From Hemiscyllium ocellatum (Eukaryota), in assembly GCF_020745735.1 (NCBI RefSeq), contig NC_083438.1, positions 38,421,949-38,485,948 on the forward strand: a DNA stretch of 64,000 nucleotides, written 5' to 3'. The translations under genes and the position numbers were made by a program. Positions within the stretch are counted from its first letter, which is position 1; each line of letters begins with the position of its first letter. This document shows positions 3,405-38,720 of the stretch, piece by piece. The notes under the pieces were generated by a model. It searched no databases, had not been told where the DNA came from, and saw nothing but the letters and a program-made list of their open reading frames with translations.

Positions 3405-4782
3405 AGATTAGATGAGATTACTTACAGTGTGTAAACAGGCCATTCGGCCCAACAAGTCCACACCGACCCTCCGAAGAGCAACCCACCCAGACCCATTCCC
3501 CTACATTTACCCCTTCACCTAACACTATGGGCAATTTAGCATGACCAATTCACCTAACCTGTACATCCCTGGGCACTATGGGACAATTTCCCATGGCCAA
3601 TCCACCCTAACCTGCACATCCCAGGGCACTATGGGACAATTTCCCATGGCCAATCCACCCAAACCTGCACATCCCTGGACACTATGGGACAATTTCCCAT
3701 GGCCAATCCACCCTAACCTGCACATCCCTGGGCACTATGGGCAATTTAGCATGGCCAATCCACCCTAACCTGCACATCCCTGGACACTAGGGGACAATTT
3801 AGCATGGCCAATCCACCCTAACCTGCACATCCCTGGACACTATGGGACAATTTCCCATGGCCAATCCACCCTAACCTGCAAATCCCTGGACACTATGGGA
3901 CAATTTCCCATGGCCAATCCACCCTAACCTGCACATCCCTGGGCACTATGGGACAATTTCCCATGGCCAATCCACCCTAACCTGCACATCCCTGGGCACT
4001 ATGGGACAATTTCCCATAGCCAATCCACCCTAACCTGCACATCCCTGGGCACTATGGGACAATTTCCCATGGCCAATCCACCCTAAGCTGCACATCCCTG
4101 GACACTATGGGACAATTTCCCATGGCCAATCCACCCTAACCTGCACATCCCTGGACACTATGGGACAATTTCCCATGGCCAGTCCACCCTAACCTGCACA
4201 TCCCTGGACACTATGGGACAATTTCCCATGGCCAATCCACCCTAACCTGCACATCCCTGGGCACTATGGGACAATTTCCCATAGCCAATCCACCCTAACC
4301 TGCACATCCCTGGGCACTATGGGACAATTTCCCATGGCCAATCCACCCTAACCTGCACATCCCTGGACACTATGGGACAATTTCCCATGGCCAATCCACC
4401 CTAACCTGCACATCCCTGGGCACTATGGGCAATTTAGCATGGCCAATCCACCCTAACCTGCACATCCCTGGGCACTATGGGACAATTTCCCATGGCCAAT
4501 CCACCCTAACCTGCACATCCCTGGACACTATGGGACAATTTCCCATGGCCAATCCACCCTAACCTGCACATCCCTGGGCACTATGGGACAATTTAGCATG
4601 GCCAATCCACCCTAACCTGCACATCTTTGAATTGTGGGAGGAAACCGGAGCACCCAGAGGAAACCCACACAGACACGGGCAGAATGTGCAAACTCCAGAC
4701 AGAGAATTACCCCGAGACGGGAATCGAACCCGGGTCCCAGGCGTTCTGTGACGGCAGTGCAAACCACTGAGCCACCATGCCT
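3405..4782 (-). mobile_element. HE1-type tRNA-derived SINE with internal 53-bp tandem expansion
   Basis: TTAGA tail and CR1-like 3' part at 3405-3530, array at 3530-4625, then conserved core (tgtgggaggaaaccggagcaccc) and tRNA-like head to ~4782. Confidence 0.85.
3530..4625. repeat. 53-bp satellite array (~20 units)
   Basis: CTATG recurs at 3576 and 3629 (period 53); unit ctatgggacaatttcccatggccaatccaccctaacctgcacatccctgggca. Confidence 0.95.
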
Positions 4783-5319
4783 CCCTAGGGAGGAGGGGGT
4801 GGGGGAAAATGAAGTTGCTGAGCCTCTTACTCACAGGGTCAATGACAAGGTTGGGGGGTGTGGTGGGGATGCATCACTTAGAAATGACGGGCAGGAAATT
4901 GAGAGGGGATTTGAGGAGGGGCATTTTCACCCAGGGGGTAGGGGTGTATGGGTTTGGAATGAACTGCCTGGGGGTGGGGGTGGTGGGGAGGGTTAGTTGA
5001 GGTGGGAAACTTCACAACATTTGAAAAGCACATGGATGACTACTTGGGAAAGTCATAACATTCAAGGTGATGGGGCTAGAGCAGGCAAGAGGGCTTGCTG
5101 TTGATGGGTCAGTGCTAACCCGATGGGCCGAAGGGTCTCTCCCATGCTGCGTGGCTGCGCTGTCGACAGACAAGAGAAAATAGGAAGAGAGTCTGTCAGC
5201 CAGAACTAACCCTCAACGACACAATAAACTTCCATTTACAGAGAACGGAGGAGATCTTGCTTTCAAGTTGGAAGTGAGCGCACGAGACACAAGGCTAGCA
5301 ATTATTCTTATTCACTCAT

Positions 5320-5690
5320 AAGGAGGGGGTGTCATGTGCTGGCTGGGCCCAGTATTTATCACCCCCCTGTCCCTAGTTGCCCCCCTTGAGAAGGTGGGGG
5401 TGAGCTGCCTCCTTGACCCCCTGCAGTCCATGTGCTGTAGGGTAGACCCACAATGTCCCTGAGGGAGGGAATCGCAGGATTCTGACCCAGGAAGGAACGG
5501 CCGATATATTTCCAAGTCGGGATGGTGAGGGGAGGGGAACTTGCAGGGGGGTGGGGTTCCCATGGACCTGCTGCCCCTTGTCCTTCCAGATGGAAGGGGC
5601 CATGGGTTTGGAAGGTGCTGCCTGAGGGTCTTTGGTGAGTTTCTGCAGTGGGTCTTGTAGCTGGTACAACACTGCTGTTACTGAGGGGGG
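5320..5690 (-). mobile_element. LINE ORF2 3' end fragment (same family as 170-425)
   Basis: Minus-strand translation includes HHPDLEIYRPF and GLQGVKEAAHPHLLKG; mirrors 170-425. Confidence 0.65.
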
Positions 5691-6740
5691 GCGGTGGGGA
5701 GGGGATGGTACACACTGCTGTTACTGGGGGGGGGAGGGAGGGGATGGTACACACTGCTGTTACTGAGGGGGGGGTGGGGGGAGGGAGGGGATGGTACACA
5801 CTGCTGTTACTGAGGGGGGTGGGGAGAGGGAGGGGATGGTACACATTGCTGTTACTGAGGGGGGGTGGGGGGGAGGGGATGGTACACACTGCTGTTACTG
5901 AGGGGGGTGGGGGAGTGAGGGGATGGTACACACTGTTGCTACTGGGGGGGGGGGGGGGAGGGAGGGGATGGTACACACTGCTGTTACTGAGGGGGGGAGG
6001 AGGGAGGGGATGGTACACACTGCTGTTACTGAGGGGGCGAGGGAGGGGATGGTACACACTGCTGTTACTGAGGGGGGTGGGGGGGAGGGAGGGGATGGTA
6101 CACACTGCTGTTACTGAGGGGGCGTGGGGGGAGGGAGGGGATGGTACACACTGCTGTTACTGAGGGGGGTGGGGGGAGGGGATGGGACACACTGCTGTAA
6201 CTGAGGGGGGTGGGGGGAGGGAGGGGATGGTACACACTGTTGCTACTGGGGGGGTGGGGGGGAGGGAGGGGATGGTACATACTGCTGTTACTGAGGGGGG
6301 GTGGGGGGAGGGAGGGGATGGTACACACTGCTGTTACTGAGGGGGGGTGGGGAGAGGGAGGGGATGGTGCACACTGCTGTTACTGAGGGGGGGAGGGAAT
6401 GGAACACACTGCTGTTACTGAGGGGGGGAGGAGGGAGGGGATGGTACACACTGCTGTTACTGGGGGGGTTGGGGGGAGGGAGGTGATGGTGCACACTGCT
6501 GTTACTGAGGGGAGGAGGGGATGGTACACACTGCTGTTACTGAGTGTCGGTGAGGGTGGGAGGGAGGGGATGGTACACACTGCTGCTACTGTGCGTCGGT
6601 GGGGGGAGGGAGGGGATGGAGCACACTGCTGTTACTGAATGTCGGCGTGTGAGGGAGGGAACGGAACATACTGCGGTTATTGAGCGTCAGTGTGGGGAGG
6701 GAGGCGATGGTACACACTGCTGTTACAGAACTTTTGTGGT
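5670..6740. repeat. G-rich ~35 bp minisatellite (GGGGAGGGAGGGGATGGTACACACTGCTGTTACTGA)
   Basis: Roughly 28-30 tandem copies; reverse complement of the array at 1-185. Further copies at ~7950-8245. Confidence 0.9.
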
Positions 6741-6789
6741 TGGGGGGGATGGGGATGGTACAAACTACTGTTGTTGTGGTTCTGTTCGC

Positions 6790-8840
6790 CGACCTAGGAG
6801 TTTTTCTTGTAAATGTTTCATCCCCTTTCTAGGTGCCATCCTCAGTGCTTGGGAGCCTCCTGTGAAGCGCTTCTGTGATGTTTCCTCCGGCATTTATACT
6901 GGTTTGAATCTGCCGCTTCCGGTTGGCAGTTGCTGTGCCGGTATATAGGGTCTCGGTCGATGTGTCTGTTGATAGAATCTGTGGATGAGTGCCATGCTTC
7001 TAGGAATTCCCTGGCTGTTCCCTGTTTGGCCTGTCCTATAATAGTGGTGTTGTCCCAGGCGAATTCATGTTGTTTGTCATCTGAGTGTACGGCTACTAGG
7101 GATAGCTGGTCGTGTCGTTTCGTGACTAGTTGGTGTTCATGGATGCGGGTTGTTAGCTGTCTTCCTGTTTGTCCTATGTAGTGTTTTGTGCAGTCCTTGC
7201 ATGGGATTTTGTGCACTACGTTGGTTTTGCTCATGCTGGGTATCGGGTCCTTTGTCCTGGTGAGTTGTTGTCTGAGAGTGGCTGTTGGTTTGTGTGCTGT
7301 TATGAGTCCTAGTGGTCGCAGTAGCCTGGCTATCAGTTCGGAAATGCTCCTGATGTATGGGAGTGTGGCTAGTCCTTTGGGTTGCGCATGTCCTCGTTCC
7401 GTTGTCTTTCCCTGAGGCATCTGTTGATGAAATTGCGCGGATATCCGTTTTTGTTAAATACTTTGTATAGGTGTTCTTCTTCCTCTTTTTGTAGTTCAGG
7501 TGTGCTGCAGTGTGTTGTGGCCATTTTGAATAATGTCCTGATGCGACTTCGTTTCTGTGTGTTGGGGTGGTTGCTTTCATAGTTCAGGACTTGGTCTGTA
7601 TGTGTGGCTTTTCTGTATACCTTCATGGTGAATTCTCCATTCGGTGTTCTTTGTACCATCATCCACTGGGACTCATAACAGCACACAAACCAACAGCCTC
7701 TCTCAGACAACAACTCACCGGGACAAAGGACCCGATACCCAACATGAGCAAAACCAACGTAGTGTATAAATTCCCATGCAAGGACTGCACAAAACATTAC
7801 ATAGGACAAACAGGAAGACAGCTAACAACCCGCATCCATGAACACCAACTAGCCAAGGAACGACACGACCAGCTATCCCTAGTAGCCGTACACTCAGATG
7901 ACAAGCAACAACAACGAGCATCCGAGCTACAAATCTTCTCCCAAACTTTGAACACATTGCTGTTGCTGAGCGTCGGTGGTGGGAGGGAGGGGATGGTACA
8001 CACTGCTGTTACTGAGTGTCGGTGAGGGGGGGAAGGGAGTGGATGGTACACACTGCTGTTACTGTGCGTCGGTGGGGGGAGGGAGGGGATGGAGCACACT
8101 GCTGTTACTGAATATCGGCGTGTGAGGGAGGGAACGGAACATACTGCGGTTATTGAGCGTCAGTGTGGGGAGGGAGGGGATGGTACACACTGCTGTTACA
8201 GAACGTCGGTGGTGGGGGGGAATGGGGATGGTACAAACTACTGTTGTTGTGGTTCTGTTCGCCGACCTAGGAGTTTTTCTTGTAAATGTTTCATCCCCTG
8301 TCTAGGTGACATCCTCAGTGCTTGGGAGCCTCCTGTGAAGCACTTCTGTGATGTTTCCTCCGGCATTTATACTGGTTTGAATCTGCCGCTTCCGGTTGGC
8401 AGTTGCTGTGCCGGTATATAGGGTCTCGGTCGATGTGTCTGTTGATAGAATTTGTGGATGAGTGCCATGCCTCTAGGAATTCCCTGGCTGTTCCCTGTTT
8501 GGCTTGTCCTATAATAGTGGTGTTGTCCCAGTCGATTTCATGTTGTTTGTCATCTGAGTGTACGGCTACTAAGGATAGCTGGTCGTGTTGTTTCATGGCT
8601 AGTTGGTGTTCATGGATGCGGGTTGTTAGCTGTCTTCCTGTTTGTCCTATGTAGTGTTTTGTGCAGTCCTTGCATGGGATTATATGTTGGTTTTGCTCAT
8701 GTTGGGTATCGGGTCCTTTGTCCTGGTGAGTTGTTGTCTGAGAGAGGCTGTTGGTTTGTGTGCTGTTATATACCGGCCACTGCAGCGGACAGCAACTGAC
8801 AACCGGAAGCGGCAGATTCAAACCAGTATAAATGCCGGCG
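6790..8840 (-). mobile_element. Penelope-like retroelement remnants (RT C-terminus plus GIY-YIG endonuclease) with inverted and duplicated segments
   Basis: VYRKATHTDQVLNYESNHP..FNKNGYP (RT thumb) and NVVHKIPCKDCTKHYIGQTGRQLTTRIHEH (GIY-YIG). The endonuclease segment occurs three times: 6842-7420 (-), ~7665-7915 (+), 8315-8760 (-). Confidence 0.9.
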
Positions 8841-9569
8841 GGGTCTGCGACATTGTCTGTATGGTATGATTCCCCAAGTGTGGCTGTGTCAGGCTGTTGC
8901 TTGGCCAGTCTGTGGGACAGCTCTCCCAGTGTAGGCACTAGGCCCCCAGATATTAATGAGGAGGGCTTTATAGGGTTGGACAGGGGTCCTTCTGCTGGTG
9001 TCTTTTCCAATGCCTCAGTGGTCCATCTGGTTTCATTTCTTTGAGACTTTGTAGCGATTAGTAAAACTGAGTGGCTTGCTCGGCCATTTCAGAGGGCAAT
9101 TATGAGTCAAACCCATTGCAGTGGGTCTGGAGTCATGTGTAGGCCAGACCAGGTAAGATTTACTTCCCCGAAGGACATTAGTGAACCAGATGGGTTTTAA
9201 AATCACAAGAAATAACAAGGTGGAGGGTACATTTTTACTGTACAAAGGGGAGAGCACTGATTGACTGGCCAGTGGACTCTGATTTGTATCGACATTGCTT
9301 TGGGAAATGCACCAGTTGATGGTGACTGACAGTTAACTGCCGAGCCAGGTTTTATCCTAAGCAGCTGGATTCTGATTGCTCAAGTCACCAAGAAATGAAC
9401 CAGCGAATGACTCTCACCTGGTTTCTGTCAGCAAATGACAGTGCACTGTCCCTTGATATCTGTAACCCCAAGCCCAATTAGCAACGTGACTGCCCGTCTG
9501 TTTCGTGCATATTCAGGATTATTCAACATAAATTCACAATTAACTTCCAGTCATTGACATGGTGATAGA

Positions 9570-10150
9570 AACATAGACAATAGGTGCAGGAGTTGGCCAT
9601 TCGGCCCTTCCAGCCTGCCCCACCATCCAATACGATCATGGCTGACTGTAGAATCTCAGGATCCCATTCCCACCCTCTCCCCTTGATCCCTTTAGCCTCA
9701 TGATCCACATCCACCTCCCTCTTGGATGTATCTAATGAACTGGCCCCCAACAGCTTCCTGTGGGACAGAATTCCACAGGCTCCCAACTCCCTGAGTGAAG
9801 ACATTCTCCCTCATCTCAGTCCGGAATGGCTTCCCCCTTTATTCTGAGGCTGTGACCCCCTAGTTCTGGATTTCCCCAACATTTCTCCCACATCCAGCCT
9901 GTCCAGTCCCATCAGGATTGTATAGGTTTCTATGAGAATCCACCCCGACATTCCCCTAAATTCCAGTCAATCCAGCCTTCCCTCATGTGTCAGTCCCGGG
10001 AATCAGTCTGCTGAACCTTCGCTGGGATCCCTCAATAGCGGGAATGTCCCATCCTCAAGACTAGGAGACCGAATCTGCACACAATCCTCAAGGAGTAGCC
10101 TCAACAAGGCGCTGGGTAACTGCAGCAGGACGCCCTCACTGCAATACCCC
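9570..10150 (-). mobile_element. Degenerate CR1 3' fragment
   Basis: Starts with an inverted CR1 3' UTR (ataggtgcaggag..ggccattcggccc) followed by decayed ORF2 sequence. Confidence 0.7.
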
Positions 10151-11079
10151 AATCCTCTCGCTAGGGAGGCCAGCATCAGCTCCCCCTCACTGCTTGCTCC
10201 CCCCCACCGCCTGCCAACCTCAGAGACTGTTCCACTGAGACACCCAGGTGTTTGTCCCAAGTAGTGTCCAATCACATTCAATTGCAGGTAGCACCCAATT
10301 GGCACTCCCTGCTTGTACAATATATTCTCGTGATTCTTGCAAAGTGTCCTGATGTGCCGTAAGATGTAAAGCTCTGTTAAGATGTGTCCCTTTCTCTTTC
10401 GCGATACAAGTTCAACTTTGAAAGCCCTGCACTTGGAAGCCTGAAATGACGAGAGCACTCATCACTGGCGTTTCAGAGCTCACATGTTGTTTTGCAGGAG
10501 ACGCAGAGCTGAGACGGGACGAGACGTCGTGTGTGCATCAGGCCGGAGAGGCAAGAAAGTATGGGAGCAACACTTCATACGGCATGGGGAAAGGGAATGA
10601 TCAATTTGGGAGGGACATGCAGCAAGAAGTGCTCACTGAGAAGATCAGCGGAAGGATCATGAGGCTTTGAATTGTGATTAATTGTTGCATTGCCTCGTAG
10701 GAGGAGTAGGGGACCTGTTAACACCTTTTCTGCTTCGTTCACTGTAAACCGTGCATCATCGCGACAGGGGAATAGGGCAATGACACAGATCACTTGCCAA
10801 GTCTTAATTTAACCTTCTTCAGAAAGGAAGAGGGAGTGTATATACCAACACTCTGTCGTTGCTGATGTGTTAGGGAGGAGTCATATCTTTCGTTTGAAAA
10901 GGGATAAAACATTTGCAAATTTAAAATTTACTAACCATGCTTCTTATCTTCACACCCAAATGATTTATATAAATAAAAGCTTAGCACTGATCCCTGTGGC
11001 ACAGCACTGTTCACAGGCCTTCAGTCCAATAAGCAACCCTCTACCACCACCCTCTGTCTCCTACTTTCTTGCCAACCTT

Positions 11080-11310
11080 TAGATTAGATTAGATTACTTA
11101 CAGTGTGGAAACAGGCCCTTCGGCCCAACAAGTCCACACCGACCCGCCGAAGCGAAACCCACCCATACCCCTACATTTACCCCTTACCTAACACTACGGG
11201 CAATTTAGCATGGCCAATTCACCTGACCCGCACATCTTTGGACTGTGGGAGGGAACCGGAGCACCCGGAGGAAACCCACGCAGACACGGGGAGAACGTGC
11301 AAACTCCCTT
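11080..11310 (-). mobile_element. HE1-type SINE, head truncated
   Basis: (TTAGA)n tail, acagtgtggaaacaggcccttcggccc, conserved core. Confidence 0.9.
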
Positions 11311-12194
11311 GTATCCAATTAGTTAGCTACCTTGGATCCCAAGTGATCTAGCCTGACTAATCAGTCTACTGTGTGGAAATTTGATGAATGCTTTGGTGAA
11401 GTCCATATAGACAACATCTACCACTATGCTGTTAGGTCAAAGTAGTTCATATCAAATTGACATGAAAGACAGCTGAGACGTAAACGTTTTGTCCATTTCC
11501 TGAACAACTGAGCAGGTTGTGGCCTTGACAGAAGGTAGGATGTACATGCCAGCCTGATCTTGGAGGGAGTAAATTCGAGACCATTACTTTCAAAATAAAT
11601 TGTCTTCATCTCACCACTGGCTCATTGGCCAATTGCCTTCAATTGAATTTTTTTTGACAGTGAAAATATATTTCTTTTGTTCACTGATGGGATGTGGGTG
11701 TCACTGGCTGGGTCCAACAGTTCCTAGTTACCCTTGAGTTTCTACATTTTTATTCTATCGAAATCCTTCATAATTTTCACTAGCCTAATTAAAATTCTCC
11801 CTGGAGTCTTTCCTGATGTGATCAGAATAATTTATTTCTTTTTAGGTTCTACACCTTGCCCCAGTCTGAGTACCAAGCTCCTGATAAACCTCTGCCATCT
11901 TTTTTTTCAAGACTTTATCTAACATTTTTAATTTTGTATGGCCTCACCTTCAATTCCAAAACCCAAGCATCCCCCGATCCCTTTTTCAACAGCATCATAA
12001 TTTGTTCTGTGATTGCCAATTTCTGGATATAAACCCATTGCTTCTCCCCACCCCAGGAGGAATGTTGCTTTGTTCCTTAGGAGCCCACTTCTCTGCCATA
12101 ACGCATTGCAGTAAATTGGAGGATATTCCACTCTTGGCCACAGCATTACTTCCATCAGCACCGGAGCTCATTTGTGGGCTCTGCACATTTGCAG

Positions 12195-13214: not shown

Positions 13215-13430
13215 CAAGGCTTTACCCCCTACCTAACACTACGGACAATTTAGCATGGCCATTTCACCTGACCCACACATCTTTGGATTGTGGGAGGAAA
13301 CCGGAGCACACCCACACAGACACGGGGAGAACGTGCAAACTCCACACAGTCAGTCGCCTGAGGCGGGAACTGAACCTGGGTCTCTGGCGCTGTGAAGCAG
13401 CAGTGCTAACCACTGTGCCACCGTGCCGCC
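13215..13430 (-). mobile_element. HE1-type SINE
   Basis: Core plus tRNA-like head ending ..ccactgtgccaccgtgccgccc. Confidence 0.9.
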
Positions 13431-14714
13431 CACTAATAGGTCTTTCTAATTCACCAGTCTGTGTCCTCCTGAAATCTATCTGTGTCCTCTTCACCATTGA
13501 CTGCTATTTCAAGTTTTGCACCATTTTCAAACTTTGCTTTGAACAATCAATTTGTGGTATTTAAAATAAATGAAGAAATATTGACTCTCAACTGTCTCTG
13601 GAGTGACACCACTTTGTTCCAGTTTAAGAGTAACCATTTACCACCATTCTCTCTTTCGTTTCCTTGCTAATTTCATATCCAGACCATGACTGTTTATTTC
13701 CAAGGGAAACTATGTGGTTTATTTCTCAAAATACTTTGTAAGTTCAGACCACATCACATTAATGAAACTTGTCCATTACTCCATCCAAGATCATTTTTTT
13801 AAGTTAGACGAACAAATTTGCCTTTCATTGATGTAACTGATATTTTCACAAAATGACCATTTTCCATCACTGTAGTTCTCTAAAGGTTCCCCTGCCACTG
13901 ACATTAGGGGAACTTACCATTAGTTCCTGGTTTCCTGATATTACCTTTTTAAACAGTGTTAAATTTCAACCCTTCAGTTCTCTGGCACTGTTCTTCCATC
14001 TAAGGAGGATTGGAATATTCTGACCACAGCCTCGACATTCGTTTCCTCAGCAGTCTTAGGGGCATCTCATCTAACTGGAGGATGTTATTTTTCCTTCAAT
14101 GTCTCAACCAACATTCACCCTTTGAGCATTAATATCAAAACAAATCATCCAGCTGCTGTGAGTACTTGAAGTGCATGAATGAAGATTGATTTTAAAATAA
14201 AGGTCAGGAGGTTGAGAGGGGGTTTGAGGAGATTTATTCACAGGGTGGGAGGAGTCTGGGATGTATTGCCTGGGCAGGTAGTAGAGGTGGGAAACTTCAC
14301 AACTTTGAAAAGATATGTGGATGAGCACTTGGAGATTCAGAACGTTCAAGGCTATGAAGGGACCTGGAGTTGTTTAGTGTAATCCTGGCAATTTAAACTC
14401 AATGAGCCAACATCTGTGTGGGTGGAAATAAGGACATGAGCAATCCTTAACAGCAGAGATTTGACACTCCAGAATACCTCTTCCCCAGAGAACAATATAA
14501 TGGGGTTTAGGGGTCATGGAATGCTCTTAAGGCAGAGGGCAGTTGAGATTGTTTTAATGAATCCGGGAGAAAATTAAAAATCACACAACACCAGGTTATA
14601 ATCCAACAGGTTTATTTGGAAGCAGTAGCTTTGGGAGGTGATTGTGGAGCAGAATCATAAGACACAGAATTTATAGCAACAGGGTCGCAGTGTCACGGAA
14701 TGTAATATTTAATA

Positions 14715-15215
14715 AATTTAGATTAGATTACTTACAGTGTGGAAACAGGCCCTTCGGCCCAACAACTCCACACCGACCCTCCGAAGAGCAACCCACCCAT
14801 ACCCACTCCCCTACATTGACCCCTTCAGCTAACACTACGGGCAATTTAGCACGGCCAATTCACCTAACCCGCACGTTTTTTTTGGGGATTGTGGGAGGAA
14901 ACCGGAGCACAATGAGTCACAGTGATCTTCCAAAGAGAAACCTACCCAGACCCATTCCCCTACTATCCTATATATTCTTGACTGATGCACCTAACCTATG
15001 TATCCCTGAACACTATGGGGCAACTTATTATGGCCAATTCACCTCTCCTACGTGCCTCTGAATTGTGGGAGGAAATCGGAGCACCCGGAGGAAACCCACG
15101 CAGACACGGGGAGAATGTGCAAACTCCACACAGTCAGTCGCCTGAGGCGGGAATTGAACCCGGGTCCCTGGCGCTGGGAGGCAGCAGTGCTAACCACTGG
15201 GCCACCCTGCCGCCC
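14715..15215 (-). mobile_element. Two adjacent HE1-type SINE fragments
   Basis: Tail plus partial core at 14715-14905; second copy with head at ~14935-15215. Confidence 0.85.
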
Positions 15216-16625: not shown

Positions 16626-17499
16626 GTGTTGAAGGAGGGTGTTAAATGCCCTGTTCCTGCTCTGAATTACACTGCGGCTATTCTTCCTGAGTTGTCATAG
16701 ATCTGGATTTTGACAGATTCAGGCAAGTCAAGATGTCAGCTGGGATTGTTGAAGGAGCACGCTGCCTGTGCCTTTAAGAGTCATGGAAGTCGACAGTGTG
16801 AAAACAGGCCCTTCGGCCCAACCTGCCCATGCGACCCATCTTTCACCATCAGTCTCATCCCATTTGCCTGCGTTGGGTCCTTACTCCTCCATACCCATCC
16901 CATCCAAGTCCCTGTCTCTCAAATTATACCAGTCCTCTCTGCTGACTCTGGACGCCCAATCCAAACACTCACCACCCTCTGTCTGAAAACATTTTTCCTC
17001 TGGACCCTCTTCCCTCTCACCTTAAACCTCTTCCATCTGGTTTTAGCTTCCCCCCCATTGCCCCATCACCACAGGGAAAAGCTGTCACATTATTCCATCT
17101 CCCTCATGATTTTATAAACTTCTACAAGGTCACCTCTCAGCCTCCGATGCTCCAGGATACATATCCCCAGACCCTATCCAGCCTCTCCCTTTCTCTCAAA
17201 CTTCTCAACCATCTTTTCTGAACTCTTCCTGGGTTAATAATATCCTTTCGAGAGGAGGGTGACCAAAACTTCACACAATACTCCAAAAGTGACCTTAACC
17301 AACAGTTGCATCAAGACATCCGAACGCCTTTATTCAACGCTCGTCCCTCACCACCATCGAGTATCGGAGTTAGTCCAATGGTACCGCAGTCCGGAGGGTA
17401 GGTACACTCCTCGCTAGGAGAGACACAGTGACTGTTTCTCTCAGAGAATACCCTCTTGCATGGAACTTAACTACAAGACTCATAGAGCGACAATGTGTC

Positions 17500-20224: not shown

Positions 20225-21059
20225 AACCCTACGGTGTGGAAACAGGCCCTTCGGCCCAACACATACATACTGGCCCTGCCAAGAGTAACCCACTCAGACC
20301 CATTCCCCTACCATTTACTCAACATTTACCCCTGACTAATGCACCTAACCTCCATATCCCTGAGCACTATGGGATGATTCCCCATGGCCAATCCACCCTA
20401 ACCTGCACATCCCTGGACACTATGGAACAATTTCCCATGGCCAATCCACCCTAACCTGCACATCCCTGGGCACTATGGGACAATTTCCCATGGCCAATCC
20501 ACCCGAACCTGCACATCCCTGGGCACTATGTGACAATTTCCATTGCCAATACACCCTAACCTGCACCTGTGGGCAGCACGGTGGCACAGTGGTTAGCACT
20601 GCTGCCTCACAGCGTCAGAGATCCTGGTTCAATTCCCGCCTCAGGCGACTGACTGTGTGGAGTTTGCACGTTCTCCCCGTGTCTGCGTGGGTTTCCTCCG
20701 GGTGCTCCGGTTTCCTCCCACAGTCACAAAGATGTGCAGGTCAGGTGAATTGGCCATGCTAAATTGCCCGTAGTGTTAGGTAAGGGGTAAATGTAGGGGT
20801 ATGGGTGGGTTGCGCTTCGGCGGGTCAGTGTGGACTTATTGGGCCGAAGGGCCTGTTTCCATACTGTAAGTAATCTAATCTAATCTAATCCCTGGGCACA
20901 CTATGGGACAATTTAGCATGGCCAATCCACCTTAACCTGCACATCCCTGGACACCACGGGACAATTTTCCATGGCCAATCCACCCTGACCTGCACATCGC
21001 TGGACACTATGGGACAATTTCCCATGGCCAATCCACCCTAACCTGCACACCTTTGGACT
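20225..21059 (-). mobile_element. HE1-type SINE with short 53-bp array, interrupted by a second SINE
   Basis: Tail at ~20225-20340; array units at 20360-20565 and 20890-21050; ends at an N gap. Confidence 0.8.
20571..20890 (+). mobile_element. Full-length HE1-type SINE
   Basis: A box TGGCACAGTGG (20582-92), B box GGTTCAATTCC (20626-36), conserved core, CR1-like 3' part, (TAATC)n tail. Confidence 0.92.
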
Positions 21060-25420: not shown

Positions 25421-25451
<31 letters not shown>

Positions 25452-26309: not shown

Positions 26310-27270
26310 TGTCTGGCATGGGGGTAAACCCTCCTGTTTAATTTAAAACCAGCCACACAGAACATATTTATCCCATGAAATAATCTGTAAGATTTGGAGT
26401 GGCCAATAAAGATTTAAAGTAAAAATTAACAACTTTGTTACTTAAAGTATAACAGAGACTAATTAGCTAACAACTATGTACAAGTCCTTACTCTAACCTA
26501 TGTTTTACCTTTCCTTCTATAACACTAATCTGATAAAACTCCCAATTAATACTTACAAATTAACATTTCTTATTTCTTTTCTCCTTGTTAGGAATCTCTG
26601 CATCACAGGTTACTGGTCGAAAAAGTACTTTTAAGAGAGTTTGTTTTAAAGCAGTCTTTGTTACATGCTAGGACTTGGAAGCTCTCCTCTCAACTGTTCA
26701 ATTGTCTCCTGGTCTTATTCACAGATTGTGTCATGGGCTTTTAAGATTGTCGGTGCACTCGGTTCAAACTTTTTTTTGGATTAGATTAGATTACTTACAG
26801 TGTGGAAACAGGCCCTTCGGCCCAACAAGTCCACACCGACCCACCGAAGCGAAACCCACCCATACCCCTACATTTGCCCCTTACCTAACACTACGGGCAA
26901 TTTAGCATGGCCAATTCACCTGACCCGCACATTTTTGGAGTGTGGCAGGAAATCGGAGCACCCGGAGGAAACCCACGCAGACACGGGGAGAACGTGCAAA
27001 CTCCACACAGTCAGTCGCCTGAGGCGGGAGTTGAACCCGGGTCTCTGGCGCTGTGAGGCAGCAGTGCTAACCACTGTGCCACCGTGCATTTGGTGTTTTC
27101 TCGGGGTATAGTTTGAACTGATTGGCCGAATTTGAATTATTTTTTGTCTCTTGGCAGCGAACTACTCGAGTTGTTCGACCCAGCGTTGACTTCTTGAGAA
27201 CGCTTGGTGCTGTGTCCAGTAGTTATGCTGTTTTTAACTATCTTAAAGGTACATCCACATCTTCATAACA
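26310..27270 (-). mobile_element. 3' LTR (interrupted by a SINE at 26780-27087)
   Basis: Aligns with 30648-32411; preceded on the minus strand by a polypurine tract. Confidence 0.75.
26780..27087 (-). mobile_element. Near full-length HE1-type SINE nested in the LTR
   Basis: Tail, core and head are all present. Confidence 0.9.
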
Positions 27271-29830: not shown

Positions 29831-29855
29831 AGTGTTTTGAGTAATTCCCTTACAA

Positions 29856-30294: not shown

Positions 30295-30530
30295 TCTGTG
30301 TGGAGTTTGCACGTTCTCCCCGTGTCTGTGTGGGTTTCCTCCGGGTGCTCCGGTTTCCTCCCACAGTCCAAAGATGTGCAGGTTAGGTGAATTGGCCATG
30401 CTAAATTGCCTGTAGTGTTAGGTAAGGGGTAAATGTAGGGGTATGGGTGGGTTGCGCTTCGGCGGGCTGGTGTGGACTTGTTGGGCTGAAGGGCCTGTTT
30501 CCACATTGTAAGTAATCTAATCTAACCTAT
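30295..30530 (+). mobile_element. HE1-type SINE, head truncated
   Basis: Core through to the TAATC tail. Confidence 0.88.
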
Positions 30531-30647
30531 AAAGTAATCTAATCTAATCTGTGACACTAACCTGCAAGTGGGTAAATCTGTTGGGATTTTTCGTACCCCC
30601 AAATCCAATCAAATCTGTTTAAACCAATTCAAATCACAGACCCAAAT

Positions 30648-32411
30648 TGTTACAACACAGGGTAAAGCCTCCTGCATAATTTAAACCCAGCAACACAGAA
30701 ATGATTTATCCCATGCAGTAACCAGTAAAAATATGAGTGATTTGAGAATGGGGTAAAGTAAAAATTAGCAACTTTATTTCTGAAAGCATAACAGAGAATA
30801 GTCACAGAGATGTACAGCACGGAAACAGACCCTTCGGTCCAACCTGTCCATGCCAACCCAGATATCCCAACCCAATCTAGTCCCACCTGCCAGCACCCGG
30901 CCCATATCCCTCCAAACCCTTCCTGTTCATATACCCATCCAGATGCCTCTTAAATGTTGCAGTTGTACCTCCACCACTTCCTCTTGCAGCTCATTCCATA
31001 CACGTACCACCCTCTGTGTGAAAAAGTTGCCCCTTAGGTCTCTTTTATATCTTTCCCCTCTCACCCTAAACCTATGCCCCTCTAGTTCTGGACTCCCCCA
31101 CCCCATGGAAAAGACTTTGCCTATTTACCCTATCCATGCCCCTCATAATTTAGTAAACCCCTATAAGGTCACCCCTCAGCCTCCGACGTTCCAGGGAAAA
31201 CAGCCCCAGCCTGTTCAGCCTCTCCCTGTAGCTCAGACCCTCCAACCCTGGCAACATCCTTGTGAATCTTTTCTGAACCCTTTCAAGTTTCACAACATCT
31301 TTCCAATAGGAAGGAGACCAGAATTGCACACAATATTCCAACAGTGGCCTAACCAATGTCCTGTACAGCCGCAACATGACCTCCCAACTCCTGTATTCAA
31401 TACTCTGACCAATAAAGGGAAGCATACCAAGCACCTTCTTCACTATCCTATCTACCTGTGACTCCACTTTCAAGGAGCTATGAACCTGCACTCCAAGGTC
31501 TCTTTGTTCAGCAACACTCCCTAGGACCTTACCATTTAGTGTATAAGTCCTGCTAAGATTTGCTTTCCCAAAGTGCAGTACCTCACATTTATCTGAATTA
31601 AACTTCATCTGCCACTTCTCAGCCCATTGGCCCATCTGGTCCAGATCCTGTTGTAATCTGAGGAAACCCTCTTCGCTGCCCACTACACCTCCAATTTTGG
31701 TCTCATTTGCAAACTTACTAGCTGTACCTCTTATGCTCGCATCCAAATCATTTATGTAAATGACAAAAAGTAGAGGACCCAGCATCGATCCTTATGGCAC
31801 TCCACTGGTCACAGGCCTCCAGTCTGAAAAACAACCCTCCACCACCACCCTCTGTCTTCTACAACTGTCTTTACTCTAACCCATCTTTTACCTTCCCTTC
31901 TATCATATTAGACTGATAAAACTCCCAATTAAGATTTACAAAACAACATTTCTTATCTCAAAACCAGGCAGCTGTAGGTTTTTGTCTTCGGATCTTCCCG
32001 TGTCTTCTTTTCTCCTTGTTAGGAATTCCTGCATCACAGGTTACTGATCGAAAGGGAGATATTTAAGAGAGTTTTTTTAAGCAGTCTGTTACATGCTAGG
32101 ACTTGGCAGTTCTCCTCTCAACTGTTCAATTTTGCCCCGGTCTTATACCCCAGGGCACTTGAATGTGTCATTGGCTTTTAAGATTTTCAATATACTCAAT
32201 TCAAACTTGATTGGAAATTGGTATTCTTTTCGGGATATAATTTAAACCGATTGGCCGAATTTGAATTTGATTTTTTTTGTGTCCATGCAATGACCTAATT
32301 GAGTTGTTCAACCCAGTATTATATTGTTGCCTTGTTGAGAATGCTTGGTGTTGTATCCAGTAGTTCTGCTGCTTTTAACTCTCTTAAAGGTGCACCTATA
32401 TCTTCAAAACA
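30648..32411 (-). mobile_element. 5' LTR (interrupted by a CR1 at 30793-31862)
   Basis: TGTTACA at 30648; LTR sequence resumes at ~31865 and ends cttcaaaaca at 32411. Confidence 0.75.
30793..31862 (-). mobile_element. CR1 LINE, 5'-truncated (RT C-terminal half)
   Basis: LGPLLFVIYINDLD..FANETKIGG..YCVQFWSP..VQKRFTRMLPG (ORF 31150-31785) plus 3' UTR. Confidence 0.92.
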
Positions 32412-32673
32412 TATTATCGCCATGACAGAGTTTTACTCCCCTGAGACTCCTTTCTACTCCCATACACTGAATACACTCCCCTTGCCTGCATGGTAACCTC
32501 TGGTCTACGACAACACTCTTTCTCCTGCCCAACGCAAGCCCCCTTGTGCCTGAAGAAGGGTCACTGGACCCCAAGCGTTAACTCTGCTTTGTCTCCACAG
32601 ATGCTGCAGTTTTTCCCAGGTAGACAGGCAGGAAGAACACAGCAAGCCAGGCAGCATCAGGAGCTGGAGAAAT

Positions 32674-33458
32674 TGTTACAATGCAGTGGTGAACCCTTCT
32701 GTTAATTAAACCAAACACCCAGAAAAGCTCACCTCACCTCGTAATCTGTCAACGTATGAGAGACAGAGAACTCCCAAATTCCACTATTTAAAGAAGAAAA
32801 TAAATTTATTCTTGAACTCTAAAAGTGAACATTAAACAACAACTGTTTACAACTCTAAACCCCCTCTTTCTCTTAACTGCTTGTTACCTTCCTCCAACTC
32901 CCTAACAATATGCTGTTCCAATAAAACACTTACTAAAATTACAACAACTTAATTTCAAAACCACACAGCAGCTGCCGGCTTTGGTGTCTATCTTCTCCCA
33001 GCTGAGATCTCCCTGGGTCGTCTTCTTTCTTTTTTCTGTGAAGATGTTTCATATGAAAAGGTACCTTGATAGAGTACGTTCCAGATAGCAATTGCTCTGT
33101 CAATGGCATTTGCACTACTGATGACAGTTACTCTCTCAATTATAGTAACTCTGTCTAACTTTCAAACTGCCTGCCTTATTATCCCCCTAACATCAGATCA
33201 TCTCCTTGGTTCGATGTTGGCAAAACAATAAATTCAAGCTAAATTGGGTTTTACTATCTTGGGGCATAATTTAAACTGGTTGGTTAAATTTGGATTGATG
33301 TCAAAATAGCAACCAACTCAGGTCCTCATTTCTCAGCTAAATGTTACATATTTTCAATTTTCCACTACTCTCTGAGACTGCTAGCTAGTCATTTGTTAGG
33401 TGCTTGTAAGCTCACAGTGCAAAACATCATACACTCTGTCTTAAAGCTACAGTACATA
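32674..33458. mobile_element. Solo LTR of a related family
   Basis: Starts TGTTACA; shares gggcataatttaaactggttgg and tgtcttaaagctac blocks with the other LTRs but is more diverged. Confidence 0.6.
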
Positions 33459-33464
33459 CCATAA

Positions 33465-35290
33465 GGCTATAAGACATAGGAGTGGAAGTAAGGCCAGTCG
33501 GCCCATCGAGTCCACTCCGCCATTTAATCATGGCTGATGGGCATTTCAACTCCACTTACCTGCATTCTCCCCGTAGCCCTTAATTCCTTGTGACATCAAG
33601 AATATATCAATCTCTGCCTTGAAGACATTTAGGGTCCCAGCCTCCACTGCACTCTGTGGCAATGAATTCCACAGGCCCACCACTCGCTGGCTGAAGAAAT
33701 GTCTCCGCATTTCTGTTCTGAATTGACCCCCTCTCATTCTAAGGCTGTGTCTACGGGTTCTAGTCTCCTCGCCTAACGGAAACAATTTCCTAGCGTCCAC
33801 CCTTTCGAAGTCACGTATTATCTTGTAAGTTTCTATTAGATCTCCCCTTAATCTTCTAAACTCCAATGAATCCAATCCCAGGATCCTCAGCCGTTCCTCG
33901 TATGTTAGACCTACCATTCCAGGGATCATCCGTGTGAATCTCCGCTGGACACGCTCCAGTGCCAGTATGTCCTTCCTGAGGTGTGGGGACCAAAACTGGA
34001 CACAGTACTCCAAATGGGGCCTAACCAGAGCTTTATAAAGTCTCAGGAGCACAACGGTGCTTTTATATTCCAACCCTCTTGAGATAAATGACAACATTGC
34101 ATTCCCTTTCTTAATCACGGACTCAACCTGCATGTTTACCTTTAGAGAATCCTTGACTAGCACTCCCAGATCCCTTTGTACTTTGGCTTTATGTATTTTC
34201 TCACCATTTAGAAAGTAGTCCATGCTTGTATTCTTTTTTCCAAAGTGCAAGACCTCGCATTTGCTCACATTGAATTCCATCAGCCATTTCCTGGACCACT
34301 CTCCCAACCTGTCTAGATCCTTCTGTAGCCTCCCCACTTCCTCAGTACTACCTGCCTGTCCACCTAACTTCGTATCATCGGCAAACTTCACTAGAAAGCC
34401 CCCAGTCCCTTCATCCAGATCATTAACATATAATGTGAACAGCTGCGACCCCAACACTGAACCCTGCGGGACACCACTCGTCACCGGCTGCCATTCCGAA
34501 AAAGAACCTTTTATCCCAACTCTCTGCCTTCTGTTAGACAGCCAATCCTCAATCCATCCCAGTAGCTCACCTTGAACACCATGGGCCCTCACCTTGCTCA
34601 GCAGCCTCCCGTGTGGCACCTTATCAAAGGCCTTTTGGAAGTCTAGATAGACCACATCCACTGGGTTTCCCTGGTCTAACCTACTTGTCACCTCTTCAAA
34701 GAATTCCAGCAGGTTTGTCAGGCATGACCTCCCCTTACTAAATCCATGTTGACTTGTTCTAATCCGACTCTGAAATCCCAAGAATTTAGAAACCTCATCC
34801 TTAATGATGGATTCTAGAATTTTACCAACAACCGAGGTTAGGCTAATTGGCCTATAATTTTCCATCTTTTGTCTTGATCCTTTCTTGAACAAGGGGGTTA
34901 CAACAGCGATCTTCCAATCATCCGGGACCTTTCCTGACTCCAGTGACTCTTGAAAGATCTCAACCAATGTCCCCGCGATTTCCTCAGCCACCTCCCTCAG
35001 AACTCTAGGATGTAACCCATCAGGGCCAGGAGATTTATCAATTTTAAGACCTTTTAGCTTTTCTTGCACTATCTCTTTTGTAACTGCAACCATACACAAC
35101 TCAACCTCGTGACTCCATTTAATTGTTGGGATATTACTCATGTCTTCCACTGTGAGGACTGATGCAAGGTACTTGTTAAGTTCTCCTGCTATTTCCTTAT
35201 CTCCCATCACGAGGCTTCCAGCATCGGTTTGAAGTGGCCCGATGTCTACTTTTGCCTGTCATTTGTTTCTTATGTATTGTGTATGTACCT
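33465..35290 (-). mobile_element. CR1 LINE, 5'-truncated, uninterrupted 554-aa RT ORF (33546-35210)
   Basis: KSPGPDG, YRPISLTS, LDFQKAFDKVPH, SGVPQGSVLG, FADDTKL; ORF runs to a natural stop with 3' UTR; no endonuclease domain. Confidence 0.95.
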
Positions 35291-35335
35291 TCACCTTCAA
35301 ACAAGGTCAACGTTTCGAGTGTAAATTCGCCACTT

Positions 35336-36210
35336 CCTGATGCTGCCTGCCTTGCTGTGTTCCCCCAGCCTCCTGCCTGTCCCTCCTGATGCTGCCTGCC
35401 TTGCTGTGTTCCCCCAGCCTCCTGCCTGTCCCTCCTGATGCTGCCTGCCTTGCTGTGCTCCCCCAGCCTCCTGCCTGTCCCTCCTGATGCTGCCTGCCTT
35501 GCTGTGTTCTCCCAGCCTCCTGCCTGTCCCTCCTGGTGCTGCCTGCCTTGCTGTGTTCCCCCAGCCTCCTGCCTGTCCCTCCTGGTGCTGCCTGCCTTGC
35601 TGTGTTCCCCCAGCCTCCTGCCTGTCCCTCCTGATGCTGCCTGCCTTGCTGTGTTCTCCCAGCCTCCTGCCTGTCCCTCCTGATGCTGCCTGCCTTGCTG
35701 TGTTCCCCCTGCCTCCTGCCTGTCCCTCCTGATGCTGCCTGCCTTGCTGTGTTCCCCCAGCCTCCTGCCTGTCCCTCCTGATGCTGCCTGCCTTGCTGTG
35801 TTCCCCAGCCTCCTGCCTGTCCCTCCTGATGCTGCCTGGCTTGCTATGTTCTCCCAGCCTCCTGCCTGTCCCTCCTGATGCTGCCTGCCTTGCTATGTTC
35901 TCCCACCCACCTGCCTGTCCCCCCTGATGCTGCCTGGCTTGCTGTGTTCTCCCAGCCTCCTGCCTGTCCCTCCTGATGCTGCCTGCCTTGCTGTGTTCCC
36001 CCAGCCTCCTGCCTGTCCCTCCTGATGCTGCCTGCCTTGCTGTGTTCCCCCAGCCTCCTGCCTGTCCCTCCTGATGCTGCCTGCCTTGCTGTGTTCCCCC
36101 AGCCTCCTGCCTGTCCCTCCTGATGCTGCCTGCCTTGCTGTGTTCCCCCAGCCTCCTGCCTGTCCCTCCTGATGCTGCCTGCCTTGCTGTGTTCTCCCAT
36201 CCTCCTGCCT
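35336..36210. repeat. 49-bp minisatellite (~18 units)
   Basis: Unit cctgatgctgcctgccttgctgtgttcccccagcctcctgcctgtccct; ORF starts at 35438 and 35487 confirm period 49. Confidence 0.95.
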
Positions 36211-36214
36211 GAAC

Positions 36215-37290
36215 TTAGAATCCCTATAGCACGTAAACATGCTAGAAGGCCCAGTAAGTCCTAACTGACTCTCCTAAGAGTATCCCACCCAGATCCATTC
36301 CCCTACATTCACCCCTGACTAATGCACGCAAACCTGCACATCCTGGGCACTATGGTACACTTTCCCATGGCCAATCCACCCTAACCTGCACATACCTGGG
36401 CACTATGGTACACTTTCCCATGGCCAATCCACCCTAACCTGCACATCCCTGGGCACTATGGGACAATTCCCCATGGCCAATCCACCCCAACCTGCACATC
36501 CCTGGGCACTATGGGACAATTTCCCATGGCCAATCCACCCTAACCTGCACATCCCTGGGCACTATGGTACACTTTCCCATGGCCAATCCACCCTAACCTG
36601 CACATCCCTGGGCACTATGGGACACTTTCCCATGGCCAATCCACCCTAACCTGCACATCCCTGGGCACTATGGGACAATTTCCCATGGCCAATCCATCCT
36701 AACTTGCACATCCTTGGGCACGATGGGACAATTTCCCATGGCCAATCCATCCTAACCTGCACATCCCCGGGCACTATGGGACAATTTCCCATGGCCAATC
36801 CACCCTAACCTGCACACCCTGGGCACTATGGGACAATTTCCCATGGCCAATCCACCTTAACCTGCACATCCCTGGAACCAATGGGACAATTTCCCATGGC
36901 CAATCCACCCTAACCTGCACATCCCTGGGCACTATGGGACAATTCCCCATGGCCAATCCACCCTGACCTGCACATCCCTGGGCACTATGGGACAATTTCC
37001 CATGGCCAATCCACCCTGACCTGCACATCCCTGGGCACTATGGGACAATTTCCCATGGCCAATCCACCCTGACCTGCACATCCCTGGGCACTATGGGACA
37101 ATTTCCCATGACCAATCCATCCTGCCCTGCACATGTTCGGACTGTGGGAGGAAACCGGAGCACTCAGAGGAAGCCCACACAGACACGAGGAGAATGTGCA
37201 AACTCCACACAGACAGTCACCCTAGGGTGGGATCGGACCTGGTTCCCTGGTGCCACGAAGCAGCAGGTGCTAACCACTGAGCCTCCGTGC
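36215..37290 (-). mobile_element. HE1-type SINE with internal 53-bp array (~15 units, 36330-37130)
   Basis: Tail, array, core and head in order. Confidence 0.85.
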
Positions 37291-37821
37291 AAAATTAATA
37301 CACTTTAATGTGTAGCTAATTTAGAATCTTAATCTACTTTAAACATATATGGAGAAACTGTTGAACAAATATATTACCTTAAACTACTCTGCCACCTGAT
37401 GGTGTGTGAGGAGGACTTTGCTGCCTTCTGGGTAATCAGAGCTGGTGAACAAACACCGGCCCACCCCGTGACAACCATATCCTGTGATTTAATTGGAAGC
37501 TCCAGGTTGGGAGCTGTGCTGGAAATGGCTTGAACTGGGTTGATTTATAAACATCTGTAAGTGAGCCATGCCACCTTGCTTACTCTTCAGCAGTTTGGGG
37601 GTAATGTCTCCAGCTCTGGGCCAGGAGTCGAAGGTTCAAGTCCCAGCATGCTCCAGTGGTGTGCAGGACCATTTCTGAATCAGGATGATGAGGAAACCCT
37701 CACCCACGATTACATCGGCCTGGAAATGGAATTGGAGCAGGTCGCTGTTGCTGTTTTAATGTGAAGGATCACTCTTTGATGGAAGCAGACATTGAACTAA
37801 TTTCCTGTTTATCCCTGACAG

Positions 37822-38115
37822 CGGTTCCCACCAACACAGCGACATCGGTCCCAGCAAAGGCTGGACTCTCCGAGGTCCCTGTGGCTCAGTGTATTGCGGC
37901 CTTTGGGAAACCAGCAGCAGATATCACCTGGAAATCCAGTCTCCATGGGAACCACACCACCATCCAGACGGCCAACAGCAACGGGACAGTGACTGTCAGC
38001 AGCCTGTACAAGCTGAGACCACGTCGTTCAGACAATGGTCAAACTGTGGCGTGTTTTATCACTCACCCAGCAACAGACAGCAGCAAGACATACCGCTTAC
38101 AACTGGAGATCTCCT
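37822..38115 (+). CDS. Nectin/PVR-family gene, exon 3 (IgC2 domain)
   Basis: Acceptor ..ccctgacag, donor GTAAGT at 38116, 294 nt, phase 1-1. VAQCIAAFGKPAADITW..NGTVTVSSLYKLRP..CFITHPA matches the nectin second-domain pattern. Confidence 0.93.
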
Positions 38116-38199
38116 GTAAGTCCCACATGGAAAGACAGACTGTAGCTGAGAAGATGAGTAGGGGGCACCATCAGCTCCTTGATAAGCCAGTCAATTCAA

Positions 38200-38720
38200 T
38201 CATAAAATCCCTACAGTGTGAAAGCTGGCCATTTGGCCCATCAACTGTACTGCAACCCTCCGAAGAGCATCCCACCTGGAGCCATTCCCCAACTTTATCC
38301 CGATAACCCTGCATTCCCCATGGATAACCTACATTGTTGAGATATCCCCGGATACTATGGGACAATTTCCCATGGCCAATCCACCCTAACCTGCACATCC
38401 TTGGGCACTATGAGACAATTTCCCATGGTCAATCCATCCTAACCTACACATCCCTGGGCACTATGGGATAATTTCCCATGGCCAATCCACCCAAACCTGC
38501 TCATTCCTGGGCACTATGGGACAATTTTCCATGGCCAATCCACCCGACCTACACATCCCTGGACTCCAGTGAACAATTTAGCATTGCCAATCCATCCTGA
38601 CCTGTACGTCTTTGGATTGTGAGAGGAAGCCCGCACAGACACAGGGAAAATGTGCAAACTCCACACAGGCAGGAATAGCTGGTGGAATCAAACCTGGGTC
38701 CCTGGCGCTGTGAGGCAGCA
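38200..38720 (-). mobile_element. Diverged HE1-type SINE with ~4-5 tandem 53-bp units
   Basis: Units at ~38350-38600, followed by a partial core and head. Confidence 0.75.

What the first reader, a model, noticed from the sequence alone, without database searches (positions are those of the whole stretch)
3530..38600. The same 53-bp SINE segment is independently amplified in at least four other SINE copies
Seen: arrays of ~20 (3530-4625), ~7 (20360-21050), ~15 (36330-37130) and ~4-5 (38350-38600) units sit at the same position inside minus-strand SINEs, while other copies (11080, 13215, 20571, 26780) have one unit. Inference: either this segment is intrinsically prone to slippage, or a SINE subfamily retrotransposes with a pre-formed array and seeds satellites. 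The window shows a size series from 1 to ~400 units.
Basis: partly seen in the sequence, partly recalled or inferred. Interest (0 to 1): 0.7.

Follow-up and report, generated by a model that had tools for sequence, protein, structure and literature searches.

The report
Shark SINE arrays sharing local repeats
Copies of a common jumping element in this likely shark genome hold tandem arrays of one 53-base piece that are far more alike than the elements around them and come in neighbourhood-specific versions, so they likely swap repeats rather than grow independently, a new twist on a process already known from snakes and lizards.

Summary
The arrays are real: 20.9, 4.2+3.0, 15.2, 4.8 and 400.7 units at one position inside minus-strand copies of a tRNA-derived SINE. 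The 20567 copy is plus-strand and splits an array. Older subfamilies natively carry an imperfect direct repeat 51 bp apart; younger ones lost it. Arrays occur on several chromosomes: 18 arrays against 2 unamplified long copies in small-chromosome samples, 0 against 8 on large ones. Neither first-reader option fits alone. Array hosts are not one subfamily (AU p=0.0002). Nor are the arrays independent: 29 of 32 coordinate-sampled arrays use a 53-bp unit, while 0 of 74 unamplified copies carry both of its extra bases. Array consensuses differ by ~5% against ~21% for host heads, and variants cluster in megabase neighbourhoods (permutation p 0.0014 or lower). Best reading: the native repeat seeds arrays, which grow in place and likely exchange units by ectopic recombination. 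Two window arrays also have local paralogs (43 versus 401 units). It works like squamate SINE-derived satellites (PMC10702118). The scan noted similar shark arrays on other DNA before.

The parts
3523..4625 (-). 53-bp array, 20.9 units; the unit next to the tail is of the short young type
4626..4780 (-). tRNA-derived SINE head of that array (ARAGORN calls a tRNA-like fold at 4709-4791); closest to the mid-age long subfamily (11.7%)
3276..3523 (-). two SINE tails in series: a young short-type tail (3405-3523, 5.5% from a young copy) and an older one (3276-3397); likely a nested 5'-truncated insertion or a chimera
11079..11307 (-). 5'-truncated young short-type SINE, no native repeat, no array
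13219..13433 (-). young short-type SINE, tail cut
14718..14910 (-). 5'-truncated short-type SINE beside an older copy
14918..15215 (-). unamplified long-type (mid-age) SINE that keeps the spacer and the second partial repeat
20230..21059 (-). array-bearing SINE (long mid-age tail 20230-20343); array 20344-20566 plus 20888-21049; head runs into N
20567..20890 (+). full-length young short-type SINE inserted antisense into the array; no target-site duplication evident
26776..27087 (-). young short-type SINE, single
30296..30529 (+). 5'-truncated young short-type SINE
36215..37290 (-). array-bearing SINE with long mid-age tail; array 36331-37134, 15.2 units
38200..38748 (-). array-bearing SINE with old-type tail; array 38354-38604, 4.8 units; upstream paralog has 2 units, an insertion, then 7 units
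41328..62802 (-). array-bearing SINE with old-type tail; array 41440-62648, 400.7 units, including one perfect 37-unit duplication; upstream paralog has 43 units
37416..63456 (.). segment with an inverted paralog 5-12.5 kb upstream of the window start; divergence is mosaic, 0-20% per 100-bp bin
37821..38114 (+). exon-like frame encoding a CD80-like C2-set Ig domain (PF08205, E 1.4e-16); the 38354 array lies in the likely intron after it
40506..40622 (+). next Ig-domain exon-like frame (PF13927, below the curated cut-off); the 401-unit array follows it

Best explanation
The arrays are SINE-derived minisatellites that sit at a direct repeat native to older SINE subfamilies, likely grew in place by unequal exchange after insertion, and likely swap units with neighbouring arrays by ectopic recombination. 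Step 1 (shown): older subfamilies carry the start of the segment twice, 51 bp apart; younger ones lost the second copy and stay single. Step 2 (inferred from established repeat biology): misalignment between the two copies gives extra units. Step 3 (distribution shown, cause inferred): this runs on almost only in GC-rich parts of small chromosomes, presumably where recombination is high. Step 4 (pattern shown, mechanism inferred): conversion or re-integration between arrays has spread one derived 53-bp unit across hosts of different subfamilies, keeps local variants over megabases, and now and then adds array units to short-type hosts. Step 5 (shown for one paralog pair, subject to assembly): length keeps changing after duplication, 43 versus 401 units. 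No function is shown; the default is neutral intronic repeat turnover.
For: Native repeat: 31/40 and 28/40 identity; unit 51 bp in 21 of 34 old and 30 of 40 mid-age long copies. Distribution (arrays = at least 2 full units): 0 arrays and 8 long singles in 40 large-chromosome stretches; 18 arrays and 2 long singles in 56 small-chromosome stretches, one all N (Fisher p 1.4e-5); 15 arrays in the 184-kb walk. Array stretches are GC-richer, 0.506 vs 0.430 (14 vs 97 stretches, p 4e-4). Not one subfamily: 19 hosts need 12 changes on a 75-row tree, AU p 0.0002, mean host distance 0.29. Not independent: 29 of 32 coordinate-sampled arrays are modally 53 bp, consensus distance 0.057 versus 0.17-0.21 between native units; 0.047 versus 0.214 for host heads in 22 arrays (partly similarity-selected); 0 of 74 native copies carry both insertions. 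Local variants: pairs under 2 Mb apart differ by 0.021-0.026, others by 0.059-0.080, permutation p 5e-5 to 1.4e-3. All 6 arrays at C189 5.5-9.0 Mb share one haplotype across three tail classes. Short-type tails with spacer-bearing units: L028, L282, L284 (coordinate-sampled), L041, L042 (search-selected). Conversion between neighbouring Alus is reported in PMC8230782 (passages).
Against: Array-type bases in single short copies are not significantly enriched in array-rich regions: 6 of 48 vs 2 of 31, p 0.47. Heads discriminate the three older subfamilies poorly, so some 'short hosts' may be nested insertions or chimeras; the window's own 3523 copy is equivocal. Some arrays look locally derived: L097 has 51-bp units, and L182, L255 and L041 have 52-bp units. 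Reported Alu conversion acts over ~10 kb, not megabases. Small-chromosome grids were placed where arrays had already been seen, and arrays in one 10-kb stretch are not independent, so the p values overstate. Bootstrap had not settled (0.929) and 41 of 72 branches are open. No recombination map, second individual or second species was examined. The 401-unit length may be overcounted.
Confidence: 0.65

Rival explanations
1. Independent slippage at each copy with convergent change: every host amplifies its own unit, and the same insertions and substitutions recur because of mutation or GC-conversion bias, or because that unit expands best.
For: The native repeat is present in most hosts. Most native-to-array substitutions gain G or C. 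A few arrays keep 51-52-bp private units. Arrays favour GC-rich stretches.
Against: It does not explain different fixed haplotypes in different regions (C189 5.5-9 Mb vs C116 33 Mb vs C116 35-40 Mb), spacer units in short-type hosts, or the lack of host-private variants in most arrays. No structural advantage was found.
Confidence: 0.17
2. Array-bearing SINE RNA is retrotransposed, as a subfamily or from occasional local source copies, and seeds new arrays.
For: No run of four or more T on the SINE-sense strand in 4 of 4 window arrays checked, so Pol III could read through. Several arrays lack a head, as 5'-truncated retrocopies would (L125, L128, L130, L174, L187). The chimeric 3276-4780 copy could arise this way.
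Against: Monophyly is rejected. The closest non-paralogous hosts differ by 10% and average 29%. Of the 29 array-host heads aligned, none was clearly nearest the youngest subfamily's consensus. Retrotransposition would not normally give megabase-local variants.
Confidence: 0.12
3. Local segmental duplication spread a few array-bearing copies.
For: Two window arrays have paralogs in an inverted duplication. L039/L040 are a duplicated pair.
Against: The other window arrays have unrelated flanks and different tail classes. Arrays occur on several chromosomes.
Confidence: 0.04
4. The arrays are assembly artefacts.
For: A perfect 37-unit duplication lies in the 401-unit array. Earlier scan notes report overcounts elsewhere (unchecked).
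Against: Units vary (10 distinct of 20, 12 of 14, 39 of 42, 133 of 400), one array is split by a SINE, and a paralog shares the array.
Confidence: 0.02

Closest known systems
SINE-derived satellites (sSat1-3) of squamates, Vassetzky et al. 2023, PMC10702118 (read parts 1-4 of 5 of the text; supplements not seen)
   Same: An internal SINE segment repeated a few to hundreds of times at many loci; units more alike than the SINE copies (89% vs 64% in cobra); many loci share one unit; bias to distal regions; copy number varies at orthologous loci.
   Different: Different SINE and clade. The unit is shorter (53 vs about 67-290 nt). Both SINE ends are usually kept here, which is the minor form in squamates. 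A native direct repeat, host polyphyly, units in repeat-less hosts and megabase-local variants were not reported in the parts read.
HE1 V-SINE of sharks and rays with partner LINE HER1 (named in PMC4824008 and PMC3747384, passages only; my identification is recalled)
   Same: tRNA-like head; 3' end shared with LINE 3' ends in the window (78-93%); about 320-345 bp.
   Different: No HE1 consensus was available for alignment (PMC155270 not held). I found no mention of HE1-internal arrays in the passages seen.
Mouse VNTRs expanded from SINE B1 and MaLR LTRs; Alu-derived human minisatellites (table and reference list of PMC9659126, passages)
   Same: Dispersed elements seeding tandem arrays at one internal site.
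   Different: The B1 unit listed there is 6 bp. Exchange among arrays was not covered in the passages seen.
Non-allelic gene conversion between neighbouring Alus (PMC8230782, passages)
   Same: Distance-dependent homogenisation of dispersed SINE sequence.
   Different: About 10-kb range and no tandem arrays; here the signal spans megabases and is concentrated in the arrays.
SVA/LAVA VNTR composites (PMC4432496, search listing only)
   Same: A tandem array between head and tail of a non-autonomous retroposon.
   Different: SVA subfamilies move with their VNTR (own knowledge); here array hosts are not a clade.

Membership tests
SINE-derived satellite (sSat type) | Tandem unit is a part of a SINE, shorter than the SINE | tested here: met
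SINE-derived satellite (sSat type) | At least four middle monomers | tested here: met
   3523, 36331 and 41440 arrays, and 20344-21049 taken together; 38354 is borderline
SINE-derived satellite (sSat type) | Terminal monomer runs on into a SINE end | tested here: met
   usually both ends
SINE-derived satellite (sSat type) | Units more homogeneous than the SINE copies | tested here: met
   0.047-0.057 vs 0.17-0.21
SINE-derived satellite (sSat type) | Subtelomeric bias | tested here: inconclusive
   Window is 1.8 Mb from the end of a 40.2-Mb scaffold, but 0 arrays in 20 near-end stretches of larger scaffolds, and arrays at 5.5-9 Mb of C189
sSat1-3 proper | Derived from Squam1-3 SINEs in a squamate genome | not tested
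   No Squam consensus compared; this SINE and genome look elasmobranch (recalled), so it is filed as working like sSat, not as sSat1-3
HE1 / V-SINE | tRNA-derived Pol III head | tested here: met
   ARAGORN hit at 4709-4791; only 1 head in the window passed, and Rfam found no tRNA
HE1 / V-SINE | 3' tail shared with a partner LINE | tested here: met
   tail positions 48-103 match LINE-fragment ends at 16793, 17975, 30813, 40316; the CR1/HER1 label is recalled
HE1 / V-SINE | About 80-bp V-domain homology | not testable with these tools
   no V-SINE consensus held; PMC155270 not held
SVA-like VNTR composite retroposon | Array-bearing copies form a subfamily | tested here: not met
   AU p 0.0002, 12 changes
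SVA-like VNTR composite retroposon | Array-containing transcripts and target-site duplications | not tested
   no reads were laid; target-site duplications were not surveyed
G4-driven unstable minisatellite (CEB1 type) | Unit forms a G-quadruplex or stable hairpin | tested here: not met
   no canonical G4 match, G4Hunter maximum 1.16, fold z 0.45 and -1.96; CEB1 papers seen as a listing only

The most novel reading that the evidence does not exclude
The 53-bp unit has become a locally mobile repeat in its own right. It uses ordinary SINE copies as homology landing pads, by conversion or by re-integration of excised circles, so arrays invade copies that never had the direct repeat and each chromosomal neighbourhood carries its own unit dialect. 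The extra G that makes one vertebrate telomeric hexamer per unit, present in all 22 array consensuses, may be what lets it spread. The arrays would then be a ready-made map of ectopic-recombination neighbourhoods in a shark nucleus.
Probability: 0.3. Interest if true: 0.75.

Novelty: new variant of a known kind. Interest (0 to 1): 0.5.

Why it matters
The squamate study left open why some SINE segments become satellites, how one unit comes to dominate many loci, and whether this occurs outside reptiles. This family offers a tractable case. The seed (a native direct repeat present in old and lost in young subfamilies) is visible. The host head and tail date each locus separately from its array. 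The unit variants mark megabase neighbourhoods, so exchange between dispersed arrays can be measured from one good assembly. The arrays make up 20% of the 184 kb around this Ig-domain gene and are likely variable markers. I found nothing in print on these shark arrays in the searches; these cover open-access text only, and the original HE1 papers were not available.

Tried and rejected
1) G-quadruplex or hairpin drive: the array unit has about 3 (or 2) G-triplets against 1 natively, but no canonical G4, no significant fold, and arrays of the variant without the hairpin are just as long; rejected. 2) Conversion marks in single short copies: 6 of 48 vs 2 of 31, p 0.47; not significant. 3) A fixed insertion site for young antisense SINEs in arrays: two cases at one site (window 20567, L047); the third (L254) is elsewhere; too few. 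4) Faster divergence of repeats than unique DNA in the paralog pair: 7.8% (162/2090) vs 4.0% (85/2141); the duplication is mosaic, so not used as evidence. 5) Terminal versus internal units: 0.068 vs 0.058; no clear edge effect. 6) Rfam: only below-threshold hits in simple repeats. 7) Sequencing runs: no RNA holder listed; nothing was laid, so presence in other individuals or species is untested. 8) Other minisatellites are only weakly enriched beside the arrays (p 0.04). 9) Rows dropped: L049, L209, L212 (chain ran into the tail); duplicate loci L001, L031, L037, L061, L191, L221; two paralogs and two; arrays with cut or unclassified tails; 14 random natives per class in the tree. The motif-chain method missed the 38354 array, and 17 sampled copies stayed unclassified. 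10) No notes on this place.
Full report
Observation. TRF finds the four arrays named and the 401-unit array, all with a 53-bp period. Head, unit and tail queries cut from the window place each between the 5' head and 3' tail of one SINE family on the minus strand. The element has a tRNA-like head and a tail shared with LINE 3' ends. I take it for the shark V-SINE HE1, a recalled label that I could not align to a consensus. The window is G000:C116:38421949-38485948, 1.8 Mb from the end of a 40.2-Mb scaffold. The arrays from 38354 on lie after Ig-domain exon-like frames. The 20567-20890 copy is plus-strand and splits the 20344-21049 array.

Two kinds of unamplified copy. Aligning single copies gives 'long' older subfamilies and 'short' younger ones. 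In long copies the start of the segment recurs 51 bp downstream (31/40 and 28/40 identity; unit 51 bp in 21 of 34 and 30 of 40 copies). In short copies that second copy and the spacer are deleted. The native repeat sets the unit's ends, which explains why the same segment is always the one amplified.

Distribution. I sampled 10-kb stretches by coordinate and walked 184 kb around the window. In one search, with arrays defined as at least 2 full units, the counts of short / long / unclassified / array were: large-chromosome interiors 7/4/3/0; near their ends 7/4/5/0; C116 2-32.5 Mb 7/1/0/0; C116 33-40 Mb 19/0/1/8; C189 0.6-11 Mb 12/2/3/7; C189 14-30 Mb 2/0/0/0; C190, C193 and C188 3/0/2/3; scaffold starts 11/3/3/2; the walk 17/1/3/15. 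Long singles against arrays are 8:0 on large and 2:18 on small chromosomes (p 1.4e-5). The small-chromosome grids were placed where searches had shown arrays, so this shows strong regional contrast, not a genome-wide rate. Array stretches are GC-richer. PMC10620051 (abstract and passages) reports higher GC and more simple tandem repeats on short shark chromosomes.

Segmental duplication. The 38354 and 41440 arrays have paralogs in an inverted duplication just upstream, with 2+7 and 43 units. Those two arrays therefore predate the duplication or were copied with it, and length has since changed up to ninefold, subject to a possible overcount. The other window arrays have unrelated flanks.

Not a subfamily. 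Array-host heads are star-like and match the older consensuses. On a head-plus-tail tree of 19 hosts and 56 unamplified copies, hosts fall among old long, mid long and short classes: 12 changes, AU p 0.0002, closest pair 10% apart, mean 29%. Support on many branches is weak and the label is somewhat clustered (shuffled mean 17.2).

Not independent either. Among 32 coordinate-sampled arrays of 3 or more units, 29 are modally 53 bp, 2 are 52 and 1 is 51. Consensuses differ by 0.057 and single random units by 0.12, against 0.17-0.21 for native units. The 53-bp unit has two 1-bp insertions that occur together in 0 of 74 native long copies. Numbering the unit as the reverse complement of window 3568-3620, columns 27 and 30-31 sort by region. 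C116 33.0-33.5 Mb has the native state at 30-31 (3 of 3); C116 34.8-40 Mb has the derived state in 16 of 18; C189 5.5-9.0 Mb has native 30-31 plus a change at 27 (6 of 6). Near pairs are more alike than far pairs, also without the walk (p 5e-5) and with only the C116 and C189 grids (p 0.0014). Several hosts with short-type tails carry spacer-bearing units of the local type (L028, L282, L284; L041, L042). Against this: array marks in single copies are not significantly enriched, heads separate the older classes poorly, and the window's 3276-4780 copy is a chimera with an older head and two tails, open to more than one reading.

Mechanism. Shown: native repeat, regional concentration, host polyphyly, shared derived unit, local variants, length change between paralogs. 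Inferred: unequal exchange for growth, high recombination as the regional cause, and ectopic conversion or re-integration for the sharing. I put this at 0.65, convergent independent growth at 0.17, retrotransposed arrays at 0.12, duplication alone at 0.04 and artefact at 0.02. A G4 or hairpin drive was tested and not supported.

Known systems. It works like the squamate SINE-derived satellites (PMC10702118, parts 1-4 of 5 read; its supplements were not seen and may show similar sub-variants). That paper says it is uncertain whether such satellites are restricted to squamates. Earlier scan notes on other genomes describe 52-53-bp and 33-bp shark SINE arrays, one also suggesting unit swapping. 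These are unchecked and are not support. My reading of exchange was recorded, before I saw them; the overcount warning prompted. Presence of these arrays in other individuals or species was not tested.

Verdict. A real feature and a new variant of a known kind. The neighbourhood-specific unit variants are the part worth following, because they make exchange among dispersed arrays directly testable. Interest 0.5.

Noticed in passing
window 851-1397: 33-bp tandem array (16.5 copies) inside another repeat; possibly the DeuSINE 33-bp arrays of earlier scan notes.
   Followed up: no
window 1-188, 2158-2310, 5662-6726, 7952-8245; also L125 6170-6340: A 45-46-bp minisatellite amplified at several copies of another interspersed element, a second repeat-seeding family.
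   Followed up: no
window 35335-36211: 49-bp array (17.9 copies) abutting the SINE tail at 36215; the unit resembles the end of another common repeat.
   Followed up: no
window 37416-63456 versus 5.1-12.6 kb upstream of the window start: Inverted duplication including Ig-domain exon-like frames; about 1% divergence around the C2-set exon and up to 20% in 100-bp bins elsewhere, suggesting paralog conversion.
   Followed up: partly
window 20567-20890 and L047 1826-2136: Young SINEs inserted antisense at the same position of the array unit at two unrelated loci.
   Followed up: partly
G000:C116 34.489-34.536 Mb (L121, L122, L002-L007): A ~47-kb span with array at both sampled ends and hits between, head at one end and tail-like sequence at the other; hits recur at 583-bp (11-unit) spacing. 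The interior was not read in full.
   Followed up: partly
L188 (C193 8.0 Mb): Array of at least 181 more diverged units in which a fragment of another repeat recurs, i.e. amplified together with the array.
   Followed up: no
window 41440-62648: One perfect 37-unit (~2 kb) tandem duplication and many near-identical 20-unit blocks: very recent growth or assembly overcount.
   Followed up: partly
all arrays, unit columns 11-16: The extra G creates one vertebrate telomeric hexamer per unit, absent from the native consensus (motif recalled).
   Followed up: partly
window 6730-7950 and 8246-8769: Retroelement-like fragment with a local near-identical copy (95.7%).
   Followed up: no
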